From contig JAZGCJ010000341.1 in the NCBI GenBank assembly GCA_036476895.1, positions 18,114 to 82,113 of the forward strand: DNA of 64,000 nt, written 5' to 3'. Below, one piece after another: positions 10,033 through 10,458 of the stretch. The stretch's first letter is position 1. Each line of letters opens with the position of its first letter. Source of the stretch: Thermodesulfobacteriota bacterium. Its GTDB lineage: Bacteria > Desulfobacterota_D > UBA1144 > Nemesobacterales > JAZGCJ01. A model generated the notes under the pieces. The model was not told the origin of the DNA. It did no database searches and worked only from the letters and a program-made list of their open reading frames with translations. The position numbers were made by a program, and so were the translations under genes.

Positions 10033-10170
10033 GATAATCTCCTCGAGATTTCAATAAGTACATTATTGTTTCGAGACTTTATAAGTCTGACCAATTTGAT
10101 ATCAATGCATTGACGGAAGATACAAAAGTATTTAAAGTCTGGAATGTAATATATTACTTGTGAACAAATA

Positions 10171-10458
10171 ATGACACAACTAGAAAATGAGATGAATACA
10201 GTACGATTTGACTTTATTAGCGATTTAGGACATGGGTATGTGAAAGTGCCTTTAGTCATGATCCAGGAGTTAGGAATTACAAACAAAATTTCTGAATATT
10301 CATTCAAAGATAATGAATTTGGGTATTTAGAAGAGGATTGTGATTTTTGGCTTTTTATAGGTGAATTACTTTTACAACAGGTAAACATTCGTGTGGAATA
10401 TAACTACATTGATGCTGGTGAATTCGCTCCCTGCCGACAGTTGCCCCGCTTTACCTGA
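10171..10458 (+). CDS. hypothetical protein
   Basis: 95-aa ORF directly downstream of the conserved promoter cassette 10102-10170 (…cttgtgaacaaataATG). Confidence 0.45.
   Translation: MTQLENEMNTVRFDFISDLGHGYVKVPLVMIQELGITNKISEYSFKDNEFGYLEEDCDFWLFIGELLLQQVNIRVEYNYIDAGEFAPCRQLPRFT

What the first reader, a model, noticed from the sequence alone, without database searches (positions are those of the whole stretch)
10102..10173. Family of near-identical promoter/leader cassettes: AATGCATTGA palindrome + TATTTAAAG TATA box + GTGAAC element before the start codon
A cassette of about 70 nt, tcAATGCATTGACGGAAGATACAAAAGTATTTAAAGTCTGGAATG-(N6-8)-attaCTTGTGAACaaatATG, recurs with 80-90% identity at four sites: 10102-10173 (+), 35488-35554 (+), 53354-53410 (-) and 54976-55058 (-). 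Shorter variants are at 39125-39179, 55872-55956, 58960-59009 and 59700-59741. Its TATA-like element (TTTAAA/TTATAAAG) sits about 35-40 nt upstream of the ATG. This fits archaeal BRE/TATA promoters with a short or absent leader, and matches the archaeal/eukaryal-type replication proteins. The palindromic AATGCATT core occurs at least 10 times in 64 kb: 8474, 10104, 34023, 37205, 45839, 45900, 47804, 51655, 55049, 55946, with variants at 39127 and 53399. About 0.1 occurrences are expected by chance. Nearly all lie in intergenic regions and several sit centrally between divergent genes, which is operator-like. GTGAAC or GGTGAAC lies 4-9 nt upstream of many start codons on both strands. It could base-pair with the conserved GAUCACC part of the 16S rRNA 3' end as a non-canonical ribosome-binding site, or it could mark the transcription start.
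Basis: partly seen in the sequence, partly recalled or inferred. Interest (0 to 1): 0.65.

Follow-up and report, generated by a model that had tools for sequence, protein, structure and literature searches.

The report
Repeated promoter cassettes of an archaeal virus
An uncultivated tailed virus of archaea reuses one ~70-base "on-switch" (regulator site, TATA box, fixed start motif) in front of several unrelated small genes. One copy instead sits in front of a guide-RNA-like gene (HEARO, the ωRNA of IscB nucleases) with no nuclease gene found. The switch is an ordinary kind of viral promoter repeat; the orphan guide RNA is the unusual part.

Summary

**Cassette.** Four 66-75 nt copies (10097-10170+, 35479-35553+, 53413-53341-, 55049-54974-) are 77-85% identical, and their flanks are at random similarity. 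There are two weak variants.

**Palindrome.** AATGCATT occurs 9 times, not 10 or more. About 2.8 are expected by chance, not 0.1. It is still enriched and essentially confined to intergenic DNA.

**GTGAAC.** GTGAAC-N4-9-ATG occurs 14 times (2.8 expected). TATA-N20-25-GTGAAC occurs 11 times (1.0 expected).

**Host.** The capsid and portal proteins match only archaeal tailed viruses. The virus also encodes PolB, PCNA and XPF.

**Reading.** The archaeal BRE/TATA interpretation is the best one:
- palindromic regulator site near -52;
- BRE/TATA at about -36 to -23;
- AT-rich spacer;
- predicted start inside GTGAAC;
- a 10-13 nt leader.

A related virus shares the BRE/TATA core but has GAGGT where this virus has GTGAAC. 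GTGAAC is a poor Shine-Dalgarno match: only 4 bases pair with the 16S 3' end.

**New point.** The 53.4 kb copy precedes no protein gene. It precedes a full-length HEARO (IscB ωRNA), and the predicted start would leave a 23-nt 5' extension of guide length. No IscB gene was found in 83 of the contig's 88 kb.

**Novelty.** This is a new member of a known kind (the HF2, HGTV-1 and SIRV2 repeated promoter motifs). No start site has been mapped.

The parts
10097..10173 (+). Cassette copy 1. Contains: palindrome TCAATGCATTGA 10102-10113; BRE-like ACAAAAGTA 10122-10130; TATA TTTAAAG 10131-10137; conserved TCTGGAATG 10138-10146; AT-rich spacer 10147-10159; GTGAAC 10160-10165; ATG 10171. Drives a 95-aa ORF of unknown function (10171-10458).
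   Evidence: Pfam and PHROGs find nothing
35479..35554 (+). Cassette copy 2. Contains: degenerate palindrome CATTTCATTAA; TATA TTTAAAT 35514-35520; GTGAAC 35542-35547; ATG 35552. Drives a 153-aa ORF (DUF6011). A hairpin plus T7 tract follows the gene.
53341..53413 (-). Cassette copy 3. Contains: TCAATGTATTAA 53408-53397; TATA TTTAAAG 53379-53373; the G aligned with the G of GTGAAC is 53351 (the sequence here is GTTGGT). Similarity to the other copies ends at ...ACTTGT. No start codon follows; the HEARO scaffold starts 23 nt downstream.
53127..53351 (-). Predicted non-coding transcript of cassette 3: a 23-nt 5' extension GTTGGTAAGGAATGATATCAACG (53351-53329), then the HEARO/IscB ωRNA scaffold (53328-53127). 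Further stem-loops and a T6 tract follow at about 53043-53037. ORF 53072-53353 overlaps it and is probably spurious.
   Evidence: Rfam RF02033: 108.4 bits (gathering score 83), model positions 1-211; sequence
54973..55058 (-). Cassette copy 4. Contains: AATGCATT 55049-55056 plus second site AATACATT 55034-55041; TATA CTTATAAAG 55016-55008; GTGAAC 54985-54980; ATG 54975. Drives a 79-aa ORF (DUF4314). T-rich tracts follow the gene.
55869..55961 (-). Weak cassette variant. Contains: CCAATGCATTGATATCAA; TTTTAAAC; 22 nt; GTGAAC 55882-55877; ATG 55871. The real start of a 116-aa ORF is here; the longer TTG-start ORF call is probably an artefact.
   Evidence: nhmmer E = 0.0025
58964..59012 (+). Weak cassette variant. 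Contains: TTTTAAAGTCTCGAG; 22-nt spacing; GTGAAC 58999-59004; ATG 59010 (136-aa ORF).
   Evidence: nhmmer E = 0.021
39125..39179 (+). Marginal variant. Contains: TCAATGCAC half-palindrome directly abutting TTATAAG; 23 nt; GTGAAC 39167-39172; ATG 39177 (259-aa ORF with a weak HTH hit). A divergent gene, 38744-39061(-), lies on the other side.
   Evidence: nhmmer E = 0.83
51572..54661 (-). Run of further GTGAAC-leader gene starts in the small-gene region. G positions: 51583, 51941, 52993, 54292 (only a 24-codon ORF follows) and 54661. Each lies 10-13 nt before an ATG. Three (51583, 51941, 54661) have an A/T-rich heptamer at a cassette-like distance (21-25 nt). At 54292 it lies 4-5 nt closer. 52993 has none.
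59727..59741 (+). GGTGAAC-CCTACC-ATG in front of a 204-aa ORF. There is no TATA at the cassette distance. It shares only the hexamer with the cassette.
8370..8483 (.). Divergent control region between the AbrB/MazE-like gene (8150-8314, -) and 8526-9548 (+). Contains TGAATGCATTGA at 8472-8483. GTGAACCAAAT on the minus strand (G at 8376) lies 62 nt before the AbrB-like ATG, so here GTGAAC is not tied to a start codon.
34021..34032 (.). AATGCATT site about 20 nt upstream of TTTTTAAAC. That TATA ends 28 nt before the portal gene's ATG, and the gene has no SD (leaderless-like promoter).
37153..37214 (-). CAATGCATTGGTCA...TTTTTAAAA followed 22 nt later by GGGGCGG, the 5' end of a tRNA-like element (acceptor stem plus T arm). 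It shows a TATA-to-5'-end distance like that of the cassette.
45824..45909 (.). Divergent region with two exact AATGCATT sites (45839, 45900) and one AATGTATT (45824). GTGAAC is embedded between two of them on the minus strand. The site at 45900 lies between a TTTAAAG box and the expected start of gene 45954(+), which is a repressor-like position.
51653..51664 (.). TTAATGCATTGA upstream of the promoter of gene 51393-51572(-).

Best explanation
The cassette is a modular archaeal-type promoter of an uncultivated tailed virus of archaea. The virus reuses it in front of unrelated, mostly tiny accessory genes and one non-coding RNA.

**Layout, numbered from the conserved G taken as +1 (inferred from sequence geometry):**
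- a palindromic site (TCAATGCATTGA and variants) at about -58 to -47, for a dimeric DNA-binding regulator;
- an A-rich BRE-like stretch plus TATA box (ACAAAAGTA-TTTAAAG) at about -38 to -23, which recruits host TBP and TFB;
- a conserved TCTGGAATG block and an AT-rich stretch (-22 to -1) that melts on promoter opening;
- initiation on a purine within GTGAAC, giving mRNAs with a 10-13 nt leader.

The host RNA polymerase does the transcribing. The shared flanking blocks make the copies one co-regulated class. By analogy with other archaeal viruses these are probably early genes.

The units look self-contained. Each has a promoter and a small gene, and three of the four cassette units end in a T-rich tract.

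GTGAAC is best read as the initiator/first-transcribed motif of this class. It may also be a binding site for a class-specific regulator. Any contribution as a 4-base SD-like contact is secondary.

**Shown:** repetition, boundaries, statistics, positions, gene content, and conservation of the core in a relative.
**Inferred:** promoter activity, the start point, regulator binding, and temporal class.
For: **The virus is of archaeal type**
- The capsid protein matches only haloarchaeal siphoviruses (HVTV-1, HCTV-1, HCTV-5) and a Methanofastidiosa virus among 50,697 phage records.
- The portal protein matches only the same haloviruses and a Methanomassiliicoccales virus.
- The best PolB hits are haloarchaeal viruses.
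- PCNA scores E = 2e-9. ERCC4/XPF, an RFC-like AAA protein and a weak primase small-subunit hit are also present.

**The module is discrete**
- Four copies have E <= 1e-17, 77-85% identity and random flanks.
- Each copy points towards a gene. The downstream genes are unrelated.

**The geometry fits an archaeal promoter**
- TWTWAR-N20-25-GTGAAC occurs 11 times against 0.96 expected.
- The TATA heptamer spans -29 to -23. That matches 'TATA box around 28 nt upstream of the TSS' (PMC8553660) and the mapped HF2 repeats (PMC8707807).
- A similar TATA lies 22 nt before a tRNA-like 5' end.

**The non-coding copy separates transcription from translation signals**
- Copy 3 keeps the whole module up to ACTTGT. 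It loses GAAC and the ATG, and continues into a HEARO RNA.
- So the shared part is a transcription signal, not a translation signal.
- The predicted start leaves a 23-nt 5' extension. One characterised HEARO nuclease prefers 24-nt spacers at the RNA's 5' end (PMC9755519).

**The core is conserved in a relative**
- AAAAGTATTTAAAG-nCT(C/G)GA recurs in the related virus L003, 21 nt before GAGGT-N6-9-ATG.

**The palindrome behaves like an operator**
- It occurs 9 times against 2.8 expected, and is intergenic in 7-9 of 9 cases.
- It is equidistant (23.5 bp) from two divergent TATA boxes at 10033-10170.

**Terminator-like tracts**
- Oligo-T tracts follow three of the four cassette units: genes 35552 and 54736, and the HEARO.

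**Precedents**
- HF2 58-bp intergenic repeats are promoters that start at one G in a conserved motif.
- HGTV-1 has a TATA plus inverted-repeat motif before many ORFs (PMC3950731).
- SIRV2 early and anti-defence genes share a regulatory sequence (PMC11065993).
Against: - No transcript data exist. The start point is inferred only from spacing.
- The host is unknown. NCBI bins the contig as a Thermodesulfobacteriota (bacterial) MAG.
- A sigma-70-like reading exists for the same DNA: TTGACG-17 nt-TAAAGT, 9 of 12 matches.
- Two or three GTGAAC-ATG sites (52993, 59727, and L009 11536) lack a TATA at the cassette distance yet keep the spacing to the ATG. That fits a translation-linked role better than a pure start mark.
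- In the relative, the homologous position holds a canonical SD (GAGGT).
- No close relative carrying the same cassette was found, so conservation by selection cannot be separated from recent intragenomic copying.
Confidence: 0.72

Rival explanations
1. GTGAAC is mainly a translation signal. It would be a non-canonical ribosome-binding element of short leaders, and the transcription start would lie elsewhere.
For: - The spacing to the ATG is fixed (hexamer ends 4-7 nt before it) at 12 gene starts.
- The spacing is kept at two sites without a well-placed TATA (52993, 59727).
- The GUGA-to-ATG distance (6-7 nt) equals that of GGTGA-type SDs of internal genes, e.g. 29310-29783 and 23606-23887.
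- In the related virus L003 the homologous position holds GAGGT, a canonical SD.
Against: - Only 4 contiguous pairs form with the 16S 3' end. That gives -3.7 to -3.9 kcal/mol for 7 of 11 sites and -4.8 for an eighth. Genes without the motif average -5.1, and real SDs in this genome reach -8 to -11.
- The invariant AAC is not explained by pairing, because the A faces an A.
- GTGAACCAAAT also occurs 62 nt before the AbrB-like ATG, which has its own GAGGAA.
- It also occurs before 22-24-codon micro-ORFs.
- The motif is absent from three related viruses, so it is not a general host ribosome signal.
Confidence: 0.2
2. The host is a bacterium and the cassette is a sigma-70-type promoter. The -35 would be TTGACG/TTAACG/TTAACA, the spacer 17 nt and the -10 TAAAGT. 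A ~26-nt leader would follow, with GTGAAC in place of an SD.
For: - The consensus scan finds TTGACG-17-TAAAGT at 10110-10138 and TTAACA-17-TAAAGT at 53400-53372, each 9 of 12 matches.
- NCBI labels the bin Thermodesulfobacteriota.
- HEARO RNAs are common in bacteria.
Against: - Sigma-70-like sites are not more frequent than in shuffles: 33 against 35.3, and 11 against 8.1.
- The -10 hexamer is weak.
- Capsid and portal proteins match only archaeal viruses. PCNA and XPF are archaeal or eukaryotic-type proteins.
- The weaker variants keep the TATA and its distance to GTGAAC but not the -35.
- Binning of viral contigs into MAGs is unreliable (general knowledge).
- HEARO/IscB also occurs in archaea (PMC12988326; PMC9755519).
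Confidence: 0.07
3. The near-identity reflects mobility rather than shared regulation. On this view the cassette is a PeSL-like mobile regulatory module, or moron boundary. It spreads by recombination and shuffles accessory genes, and its promoter function is incidental to its repetition.
For: - Module boundaries are sharp and flanks are unrelated.
- Copies 1 and 2 each drive a single plus-strand gene embedded in minus-strand gene arrays. Gene 35552 is followed by a hairpin plus T-run, and gene 10171 by a hairpin.
- A second repeated intergenic element (double hairpin) lies in the same region.
- There is precedent in T4-type phages (PMC2839356, PMC4122927). It has also been proposed for halovirus HGTV-1.
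Against: - No close relatives are available to show gain or loss of genes at cassette borders.
- Divergence between copies (15-23%) argues against very recent copying.
- This reading is not exclusive of the promoter explanation.
Confidence: 0.25
4. The cassette encodes a structured RNA leader, such as a riboregulator or processing signal.
For: Copy 2 folds slightly better than shuffled sequence (z = -2.07).
Against: - The z-scores of the four copies are -1.27, -2.07, +0.63 and +0.46.
- The consensus structure has -2.99 kcal/mol with an unfavourable covariation term.
- Rfam finds no match there.
- Most of the cassette lies upstream of the predicted start.
Confidence: 0.03

Closest known systems
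Class I intergenic repeats (58 bp) of halovirus HF2 (Russ, Pfeiffer & Dyall-Smith 2021, PMC8707807)
   Same: - Both are repeated ~60-bp intergenic modules in an archaeal tailed virus.
- Both have blocks of conserved bases around a BRE/TATA and a conserved motif at the start.
- In HF2 all repeats are active promoters. Nearly all start at the same G in the gamma motif, and mutating the TATA or the start region abolishes activity.
- The layout here matches: upstream conserved block, TATA, and a conserved motif at the predicted +1.
   Different: - The sequences are unrelated, and the virus lineage and (unknown, non-halophile-like, 38% GC) host differ.
- Here there is an upstream perfect palindrome and a fixed 10-13 nt leader to the ATG.
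- One copy here drives a HEARO RNA.
- No activity or start-site data exist here.
Conserved TATA plus inverted-repeat motif before most left-arm ORFs of halovirus HGTV-1 (Sencilo et al. 2013, as summarised in PMC3950731), and PeSL cassettes of T4-type phages (PMC2839356, PMC4122927)
   Same: A conserved promoter-containing motif with an inverted repeat precedes many small, unrelated ORFs. It has been proposed to regulate transcription and to promote modular shuffling.
   Different: - PeSLs are bacterial sigma-70 early promoters fused to a terminator stem-loop.
- Here the inverted repeat lies upstream of the TATA as a protein-site-like palindrome, not as a terminator hairpin.
- Shuffling could not be tested here.
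Consensus regulatory sequence of early/anti-defence genes in SIRV2 and other archaeal viruses (Bhoobalan-Chitty et al. 2024, PMC11065993)
   Same: - A highly similar upstream sequence (strong BRE plus TATA) contrasts with unrelated small genes of unknown function.
- In SIRV2 it is proposed to be bound by a viral regulator (Aca8) that shuts the genes off.
   Different: - The virus families (rudiviruses and others) and the motif differ.
- Early timing and anti-defence function are untested here.
- The candidate regulator here is only guessed: the AbrB/MazE-like 8150-8314 or the weak HTH protein 39177-39956.
HEARO RNA / IscB ωRNA (Rfam RF02033; OMEGA systems)
   Same: - Both window copies match the full covariance model well above threshold.
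- Copy 2 has a 5' extension of guide-like length after the predicted start.
   Different: - Canonical ωRNAs lie directly upstream of an iscB ORF inside an IS200/605-type element.
- Here no IscB or IsrB was found next to either copy, nor anywhere in 83 of 88 kb.
- One copy is placed under a viral promoter cassette.

Membership tests
Archaeal BRE/TATA promoter | A/T-rich TATA box centred about 26-28 nt upstream of the start, with a purine-rich BRE immediately upstream | tested here: inconclusive
   - TTTAAAG / TTATAAAG is preceded by ACAAAAG / ACATAAG in all four copies.
- It ends 21-22 nt before the conserved G, and 22-25 nt before it in the variants.
- The position is only relative to a predicted start, not a mapped one.
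Archaeal BRE/TATA promoter | Transcription starts on a purine after a pyrimidine (initiator) | not testable with these tools
   The sequence T-G-T-G-A offers such dinucleotides at the predicted position. No RNA data are available.
Archaeal BRE/TATA promoter | Host with archaeal transcription machinery | tested here: met
   - The evidence is indirect.
- Capsid and portal proteins match only archaeal tailed viruses.
- PCNA, XPF and PolB are of archaeal-virus type.
- Against this stands NCBI's bacterial MAG label.
Repeated intergenic promoter modules of archaeal tailed viruses (HF2 / HGTV-1 type) | Several near-identical copies confined to intergenic DNA and oriented towards downstream genes | tested here: met
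   - Four strong and two weak copies, all intergenic and all pointing at a gene or non-coding RNA.
- The flanks are unrelated.
Repeated intergenic promoter modules of archaeal tailed viruses (HF2 / HGTV-1 type) | Conservation of the repeats in related viruses | tested here: inconclusive
   - The BRE/TATA core plus nCT(C/G)GA is shared with L003, which has its own cassette family.
- The palindrome and GTGAAC are not shared.
- No close relative was found.
Repeated intergenic promoter modules of archaeal tailed viruses (HF2 / HGTV-1 type) | Demonstrated promoter activity | not testable with these tools
   This needs a reporter assay or RNA mapping.
Shine-Dalgarno ribosome-binding site | At least 5 contiguous bases complementary to the 16S 3' end (GAUCACCUCCU), 5-10 nt before the start codon | tested here: not met
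   - The spacing criterion is met.
- Pairing is only GUGA:UCAC (4 bp, -3.7 to -3.9 kcal/mol) at 7 of 11 sites, and -4.8 at an eighth.
- Only the GGTGAAC variants, or a neighbouring GGAGG, reach -8.6 to -10.3 kcal/mol.
Bacterial sigma-70 promoter | -35 and -10 hexamers at 16-18 nt spacing, more frequent than chance, in a bacterial host | tested here: not met
   - A 9-of-12 match exists in the cassette.
- Such matches are no more frequent than in shuffles.
- The gene content points to an archaeal virus.
HEARO / IscB ωRNA | Match to the RF02033 covariance model above the gathering score | tested here: met
   109.2 and 108.4 bits against a gathering score of 83. Both matches cover the full model, positions 1-211.
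HEARO / IscB ωRNA | Located directly upstream of (within 500 bp of, or overlapping) an iscB/isrB ORF | tested here: not met
   - The downstream ORFs (131, 169, 158 and 93 aa) have no RuvC, HNH or RRXRR hits.
- No IscB-like protein was found in the window, L007 or L009.
- About 4.7 kb of the contig remain unseen.
HEARO / IscB ωRNA | 5' guide complementary to a DNA target next to a TAM | tested here: inconclusive
   - A 23-nt 5' extension is predicted.
- No match of at least 20 nt was found in GTDB genomes or JGI metagenomes.
- No match was found in the virus itself or its relatives.
- IMG/VR 16-mer hits are at chance level and do not extend.

The most novel reading that the evidence does not exclude
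An archaeal virus carries two divergent, structurally intact IscB-type guide RNAs (HEARO/ωRNA) without a nuclease gene of its own. It expresses at least one of them from its early-type promoter cassette, with a transcript start that leaves a guide-length 23-nt 5' extension. On this reading the virus supplies guides in trans. They might reprogramme a host- or co-resident-element IscB against host, defence or competitor DNA, or they might titrate that nuclease as decoys. Separately, the class-specific GTGAAC at +1 could be a new kind of 5'-terminal recognition element for short-leadered archaeal mRNAs.
Probability: 0.15. Interest if true: 0.8.

Novelty: new member of a known kind. Interest (0 to 1): 0.45.

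Why it matters
**The cassette as a handle on gene regulation**
- Almost nothing is known about how the uncultivated tailed archaeal viruses of anoxic sediments regulate their genes.
- A sharply defined promoter module gives a direct handle on a co-regulated, probably early, gene class: regulator palindrome, BRE/TATA, fixed start motif.
- In cultivated archaeal viruses that class is where anti-defence genes are found (PMC11065993).
- The module can be used to pick candidate genes. It also gives a testable prediction for any metatranscriptome of the source sample: 5' ends within GTGAAC.

**The HEARO copy**
- It shows that the shared sequence is a transcription signal rather than a translation signal.
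- It also raises the less ordinary possibility of virus-supplied orphan ωRNAs.

**If the promoter reading is all there is**, the finding is ordinary. It would be another example of what HF2 and HGTV-1 already showed.

Tried and rejected
- **Cassette in public collections.** Degenerate core patterns gave 0 hits in IMG/VR and 0 in JGI metagenomes.
- **Whole-window megablast against phages.** No match.
- **Relatives through the capsid protein in IMG/VR.** One distant locus only.
- **Relatives through a terminase alignment in GTDB genomes.** None, so no host assignment was possible.
- **Relatives through the terminase in the protein database.** Four long contigs at 33-49% identity. They lack GTGAAC leaders and HEARO. 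One of them shares the core promoter.
- **tRNA search.** None found. The two tRNA-like elements are not canonical tRNAs.
- **RNA-structure reading of the cassette.** Rejected.
- **Sigma-70 reading.** Considered and ranked low.
- **SD reading of GTGAAC.** Tested by duplex energies and found weak.
- **IscB hunt.**
  - Pfam scans of about 50 ORFs.
  - PDB sequence searches of three unknown 316-340-aa proteins.
  - Gene tables of two contig extensions.
  - Result: only a 200-aa HNH protein and a 336-aa protein with a weak PacI-like hit. Neither lies next to a HEARO.
- **Failed look-ups.** A homology search with a truncated protein found nothing. Another was not on record.
- **Small proteins downstream of the two HEAROs.** Not homologous to each other.
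- **Guide targets.** Not found.
- **HEARO blastn against phages.** No match.
- **Literature search for GTGAAC in archaeal promoters.** Nothing relevant.
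Full report
**What the window is**

The 64-kb window has 38% G+C. It is part of an 88,028-bp contig, JAZHCF016853949.1 of assembly GCA_044345325.1. NCBI labels its proteins 'MAG: Thermodesulfobacteriota bacterium'.

The gene content is that of a tailed virus:
- large terminase, portal, prohead protease and an HK97-type capsid protein;
- a tail-tube protein;
- a head-tail protein that carries an intein.

The replication module is of archaeal type:
- family B DNA polymerase;
- PCNA, Pfam E = 2.1e-9;
- an ERCC4/XPF-HhH2 nuclease and an RFC-like AAA+ protein;
- a weak primase small-subunit match.

Among 50,697 phage records the capsid protein matches only the HVTV-1/HCTV-1/HCTV-5 group of haloarchaeal siphoviruses and a Methanofastidiosa virus. 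The portal matches only the same haloviruses and a Methanomassiliicoccales virus. The best PolB hits are haloarchaeal viruses.

I therefore treat it as a virus of an unidentified archaeon, and the bacterial label as a binning artefact. That is an inference, not a proof.

**Checking the observation**

The four cassette copies are real. A profile built from them finds:
- 55049-54974(-), E = 3.1e-21;
- 10097-10170(+), E = 4.8e-21;
- 35479-35553(+), E = 9.8e-20;
- 53413-53341(-), E = 1.6e-17.

It then finds 55941-55875(-) at E = 0.0025, 58964-59006(+) at E = 0.021 and 39146-39178(+) at E = 0.83. The site at 59700-59741 is not found as a cassette.

Pairwise identity is 77-85% over the 66 aligned columns that end at ...TTACTTGT. 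The 60 nt on either side are only 20-37% identical, which is random level. The module therefore has sharp borders and sits in front of unrelated sequences.

AATGCATT occurs 9 times, not 10 or more, because position 47804 reads CATGCATT. Dinucleotide-preserving shuffles give 2.83 +/- 1.60, with a maximum of 7 in 100. The 12-mer TCAATGCATTGA with up to 2 mismatches occurs 18 times against 6.0 +/- 2.3.

With a crude ORF map (14.4% non-coding), 7 of the 9 sites are intergenic, P = 3.5e-5. The other two are probably intergenic as well:
- 55946 lies in a TTG-start extension of an ORF whose real ATG (55871) follows a GTGAAC motif;
- 37205 lies in an ORF that overlaps a tRNA-like element.

Three more exact copies lie in the contig beyond the window, at least two of them intergenic.

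GTGAAC occurs 45 times against 25.1 +/- 4.8 expected. GTGAAC-N4-9-ATG occurs 14 times against 2.76 +/- 1.93 (maximum 9 in 100). Twelve of the 14 precede credible gene starts.

**Anatomy**

The numbering takes the conserved G as +1. In copy 1 that is position 10160.

| Element | Position | Copy 1 coordinates |
|---|---|---|
| Palindrome TCAATGCATTGA (perfect in copy 1; TCAATGTATTAA or CATTTCATTAA in the others) | -58 to -47 | 10102-10113 |
| Invariant (A)CGGAAGATAC | about -46 to -37 | 10114-10123 |
| A-rich ACAAAAGTA / ACATAAGTA | -38 to -30 | 10122-10130 |
| TTTAAAG / TTTAAAT / TTATAAAG | -29 to -23 | 10131-10137 |
| TCT(G/A)GAATG | -22 to -14 | 10138-10146 |
| AT-rich stretch ending TTACTT | -13 to -1 | 10147-10159 |
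| GTGAAC | +1 to +6 | 10160-10165 |
| Spacer, then ATG | 4-5 nt after the hexamer | ATG at 10171 |

The weaker variants keep the TATA-like box, often followed by AGTCT(C/G)G, and the 22-25 nt distance to GTGAAC. They lose the rest. Examples: 55882-, 58999+, 39167+ and 51583-. Sites 51941- (21 nt) and 54661- are close to this pattern.

TWTWAR-N20-25-GTGAAC occurs 11 times against 0.96 +/- 1.0 expected, with a maximum of 4.

At 10033-10170 the palindrome centre (10107.5) is 23.5 bp from the TATA of the plus-strand cassette. It is also 23.5 bp from a minus-strand CTTATAAAG that precedes gene 9601-10032. So this is a symmetric divergent promoter pair with a central dyad.

Elsewhere the palindrome lies about 20 nt upstream of a TATA, as at the portal promoter (34023) and the tRNA-like promoter (37205). 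At 45900 it lies between a TATA and the expected start. This is how operator sites of dimeric regulators behave. Whether the site activates or represses would depend on its position.

**Evidence that the shared part is a transcription signal**

*(i) The distance from the TATA box.* A TATA heptamer at -29 to -23 matches the archaeal rule: 'TATA box around 28 nt upstream of the TSS' (PMC8553660). It also matches the experimentally mapped HF2 repeats, where the TATA begins at -26, the BRE lies at -33 to -37, and the start falls on a conserved G (PMC8707807).

*(ii) An independent case.* A similar TATA (TTTTTAAAA) lies 22 nt before the 5' end of a tRNA-like element at about 37153(-).

*(iii) The copy at 53.4 kb.* Rfam finds two full-length HEARO RNAs (RF02033, the ωRNA of IscB nucleases):
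- 24481-24741(-), 109.2 bits;
- 53127-53328(-), 108.4 bits.

The gathering score is 83, and both matches cover model positions 1-211. The second begins 23 nt after the G of cassette copy 3 that aligns with the G of GTGAAC.

That copy keeps the whole module up to ACTTGT and then diverges to TGGTAAGG.... It has no GAAC and no in-frame start codon. The ORF called there (53072-53353, TTG start) overlaps the RNA and is probably spurious.

So the part shared by all four copies ends at the predicted start, and it serves a non-coding RNA as well as mRNAs. GTGAAC-N-ATG is an add-on of the protein-coding units.

The predicted 23-nt 5' extension is in the range of HEARO guides. [quoted passage not shown]

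*(iv) Terminator-like tracts.* Three of the four cassette-driven units are followed by T-rich tracts, some after a hairpin. Oligo-T is the usual archaeal termination signal (established knowledge).

*(v) Conservation in a relative.* The related virus L003 (ENA ERZ27233560; terminase 49% identical) carries AGAAAAGTATTTAAAG(A/G)CTCGA two to three times. Two of its copies share a further 32 identical bases. Twenty-one nt after the TATA comes GAGGTA, and 6-9 nt later the ATG. The BRE/TATA core is therefore conserved in the lineage. Each virus has its own cassette family.

**What GTGAAC is**

It is class-specific. The portal gene, the tRNA-like element, gene 9601-10032 and gene 45954-47075 have TATA boxes but no GTGAAC. 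Many internal genes of operons have ordinary GGAGG or GGTGA Shine-Dalgarno sequences, and about 30% of the genes without the motif pair at -6 kcal/mol or better. The motif is absent from the loci of three relatives.

As an SD it is poor. Duplex energies with GAUCACCUCCU are -3.7 to -3.9 kcal/mol (GUGA:UCAC only) at 7 of 11 sites, and -4.8 at an eighth. All other genes average -5.1, and true SDs here reach -8 to -11.4. The invariant AAC is not explained by pairing.

It also occurs 62 nt before the ATG of the AbrB/MazE-like gene, which has its own GAGGAA. It occurs before two micro-ORFs of 22-24 codons as well.

Three facts point the other way:
- the spacing to the ATG is tight;
- it persists at two window sites without a well-placed TATA (52993-, 59727+) and at one site beyond the window (L009 11536);
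- the homologous position in L003 holds a real SD.

My reading is that GTGAAC is the initiator/first-transcribed motif of one promoter class. That resembles the gamma motif of HF2, where mutation abolishes activity. It may also be an operator or a 5'-end recognition element, with at most a minor SD-like contribution. I give the 'mainly a translation signal' reading about 0.2.

**Rivals**

- *Bacterial sigma-70 reading.* TTGACG-17 nt-TAAAGT exists in the cassette. But such 9-of-12 matches are no more frequent than in shuffles, the -35 is not kept in the variants, and the virus is of archaeal type.
- *Structured-RNA reading.* It fails. The z-scores are -1.27, -2.07, +0.63 and +0.46. The consensus structure has -2.99 kcal/mol with an unfavourable covariation term.
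- *Mobile-cassette (PeSL/moron) reading.* It is compatible with the promoter explanation and cannot be tested without close relatives. Copies 1 and 2 do drive single plus-strand genes embedded in minus-strand arrays.

**The HEARO side-finding**

The two HEARO copies share their conserved loop motifs, but most stem sequences differ between them. Each still fits the full covariance model. Both therefore seem to be maintained rather than decaying or recently duplicated.

Canonical ωRNAs sit directly upstream of iscB (PMC10055086; PMC13565253). Here:
- the downstream ORFs are small and unrelated;
- no RuvC/HNH/RRXRR protein appears among the ORFs scanned;
- none appears in the precomputed Pfam tables of two contig extensions, which bring coverage to contig positions 503-83308;
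- only a 200-aa HNH protein and a 336-aa protein with a weak PacI-like hit exist, both far from the RNAs.

HEARO systems occur in archaea, and 16% of the contigs that encode the effector are viral or proviral (PMC9755519; PMC12988326). I found no description of virus-borne HEAROs without the nuclease, but I did not search exhaustively.

No target of either putative guide was found:
- in the virus or its relatives;
- in GTDB genomes;
- in JGI metagenomes;
- in IMG/VR beyond chance 16-mers.

About 4.7 kb of the contig remain unseen, so a viral IscB is not excluded.

**Comparison with what is known, and novelty**

Repeated promoter-bearing intergenic motifs are established in archaeal tailed viruses:
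- HF2 class I and II repeats have been shown experimentally;
- HGTV-1 has a TATA plus inverted-repeat motif that has been likened to T4 PeSLs;
- Shared regulatory sequences mark the early/anti-defence genes of SIRV2 and other archaeal viruses.

The cassette here is a new member of that kind, in a lineage and habitat where nothing was known. Its particular features are a perfect upstream palindrome used genome-wide, a class-specific +1/leader hexamer, and use of the same module for an ωRNA-like gene.

**Verdict**

The promoter and operator readings hold up. The RBS reading is weak, and the numbers needed correcting.
- Confidence in the promoter-module explanation is 0.72.
- Interest is moderate (0.45). 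The upside rests on the orphan HEARO RNAs.

Noticed in passing
window 24481-24741 (-) and 53127-53328 (-): Two full-length HEARO / IscB ωRNA matches (109 and 108 bits; gathering score 83). The two copies share loop motifs but most stem sequences differ. No IscB or IsrB gene lies nearby, or anywhere in 83 of the contig's 88 kb. ORFs 24398-24694 and 53072-53353 overlap them and are probably spurious.
   Followed up: partly
window ~37085-37153 (-) and 36841-36938 (-): Two tRNA-like elements with a 7-bp acceptor stem and a canonical T arm (GGTTCGAGTCC / GGTTCAAGTCC) but aberrant inner parts. ARAGORN and the Rfam tRNA model miss them; there are only weak hits to the tmRNA tRNA-like domain. They could be attP-like remnants, as proposed for HF2 (PMC8707807), or intron-containing tRNAs. 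No integrase was seen nearby.
   Followed up: partly
window 52530-52582, 54297-54349 and 51958-51981: A second repeated intergenic element, 87% identical between the two long copies. It consists of two adjacent hairpins (GATTGCCTTAAGCAATC and CTCTTCCTTTTTAGGGAAGAG on the minus strand) just upstream of small genes in the same region as the cassettes. The TTTTTAG in the loop may double as a TATA box.
   Followed up: no
window 40500-43500 (inside ORF 40344-44672, -): Many degenerate direct repeats with a 42-nt (14-codon) period inside a 1442-aa protein that carries a DUF2341 domain. It is probably a repetitive fibre or tail protein.
   Followed up: no
window 27485-29062 (-): An HK97-gp10-like head-tail protein interrupted by an intein with a LAGLIDADG homing-endonuclease domain.
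   Followed up: no
L003 about 2910-2954, 8168-8215 and 11660-11707: The related virus (ENA ERZ27233560, 95.5-kb contig) has its own family of near-identical promoter/leader cassettes: AGAAAAGTATTTAAAGGCTCGAGTTTCATATATAGTTGAGGTAA. It has a canonical SD (GAGGT) at the position of GTGAAC.
   Followed up: partly
window 40470-40500 (-): A fragment of the cassette's 3' end (AAATTTACTTGTGAACCAACAA) lies inside the coding region of the 1442-aa gene, 144 nt before the next gene (40010-40339). It may be an internal promoter remnant or chance.
   Followed up: no
L006 2831-3439 and L005 13837-14157: Relatives of this virus encode an Arf/Ras/Roc-type small GTPase (L006) and an STIV B116-like protein (L005). 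L005 also has a cluster of five tRNA genes. These are hints about the host range of the lineage, but they were not pursued.
   Followed up: no
whole contig (NCBI GCA_044345325.1, JAZHCF016853949.1): The contig is deposited as part of a Thermodesulfobacteriota MAG, although its hallmark genes are those of an archaeal tailed virus. This is probably a binning error.
   Followed up: partly
window 10171, 39177, 52982, 55871 and 59010: Five of the GTGAAC-led genes begin ATGACA (Met-Thr), so the similarity of the leaders runs a few bases into the coding sequence.
   Followed up: no
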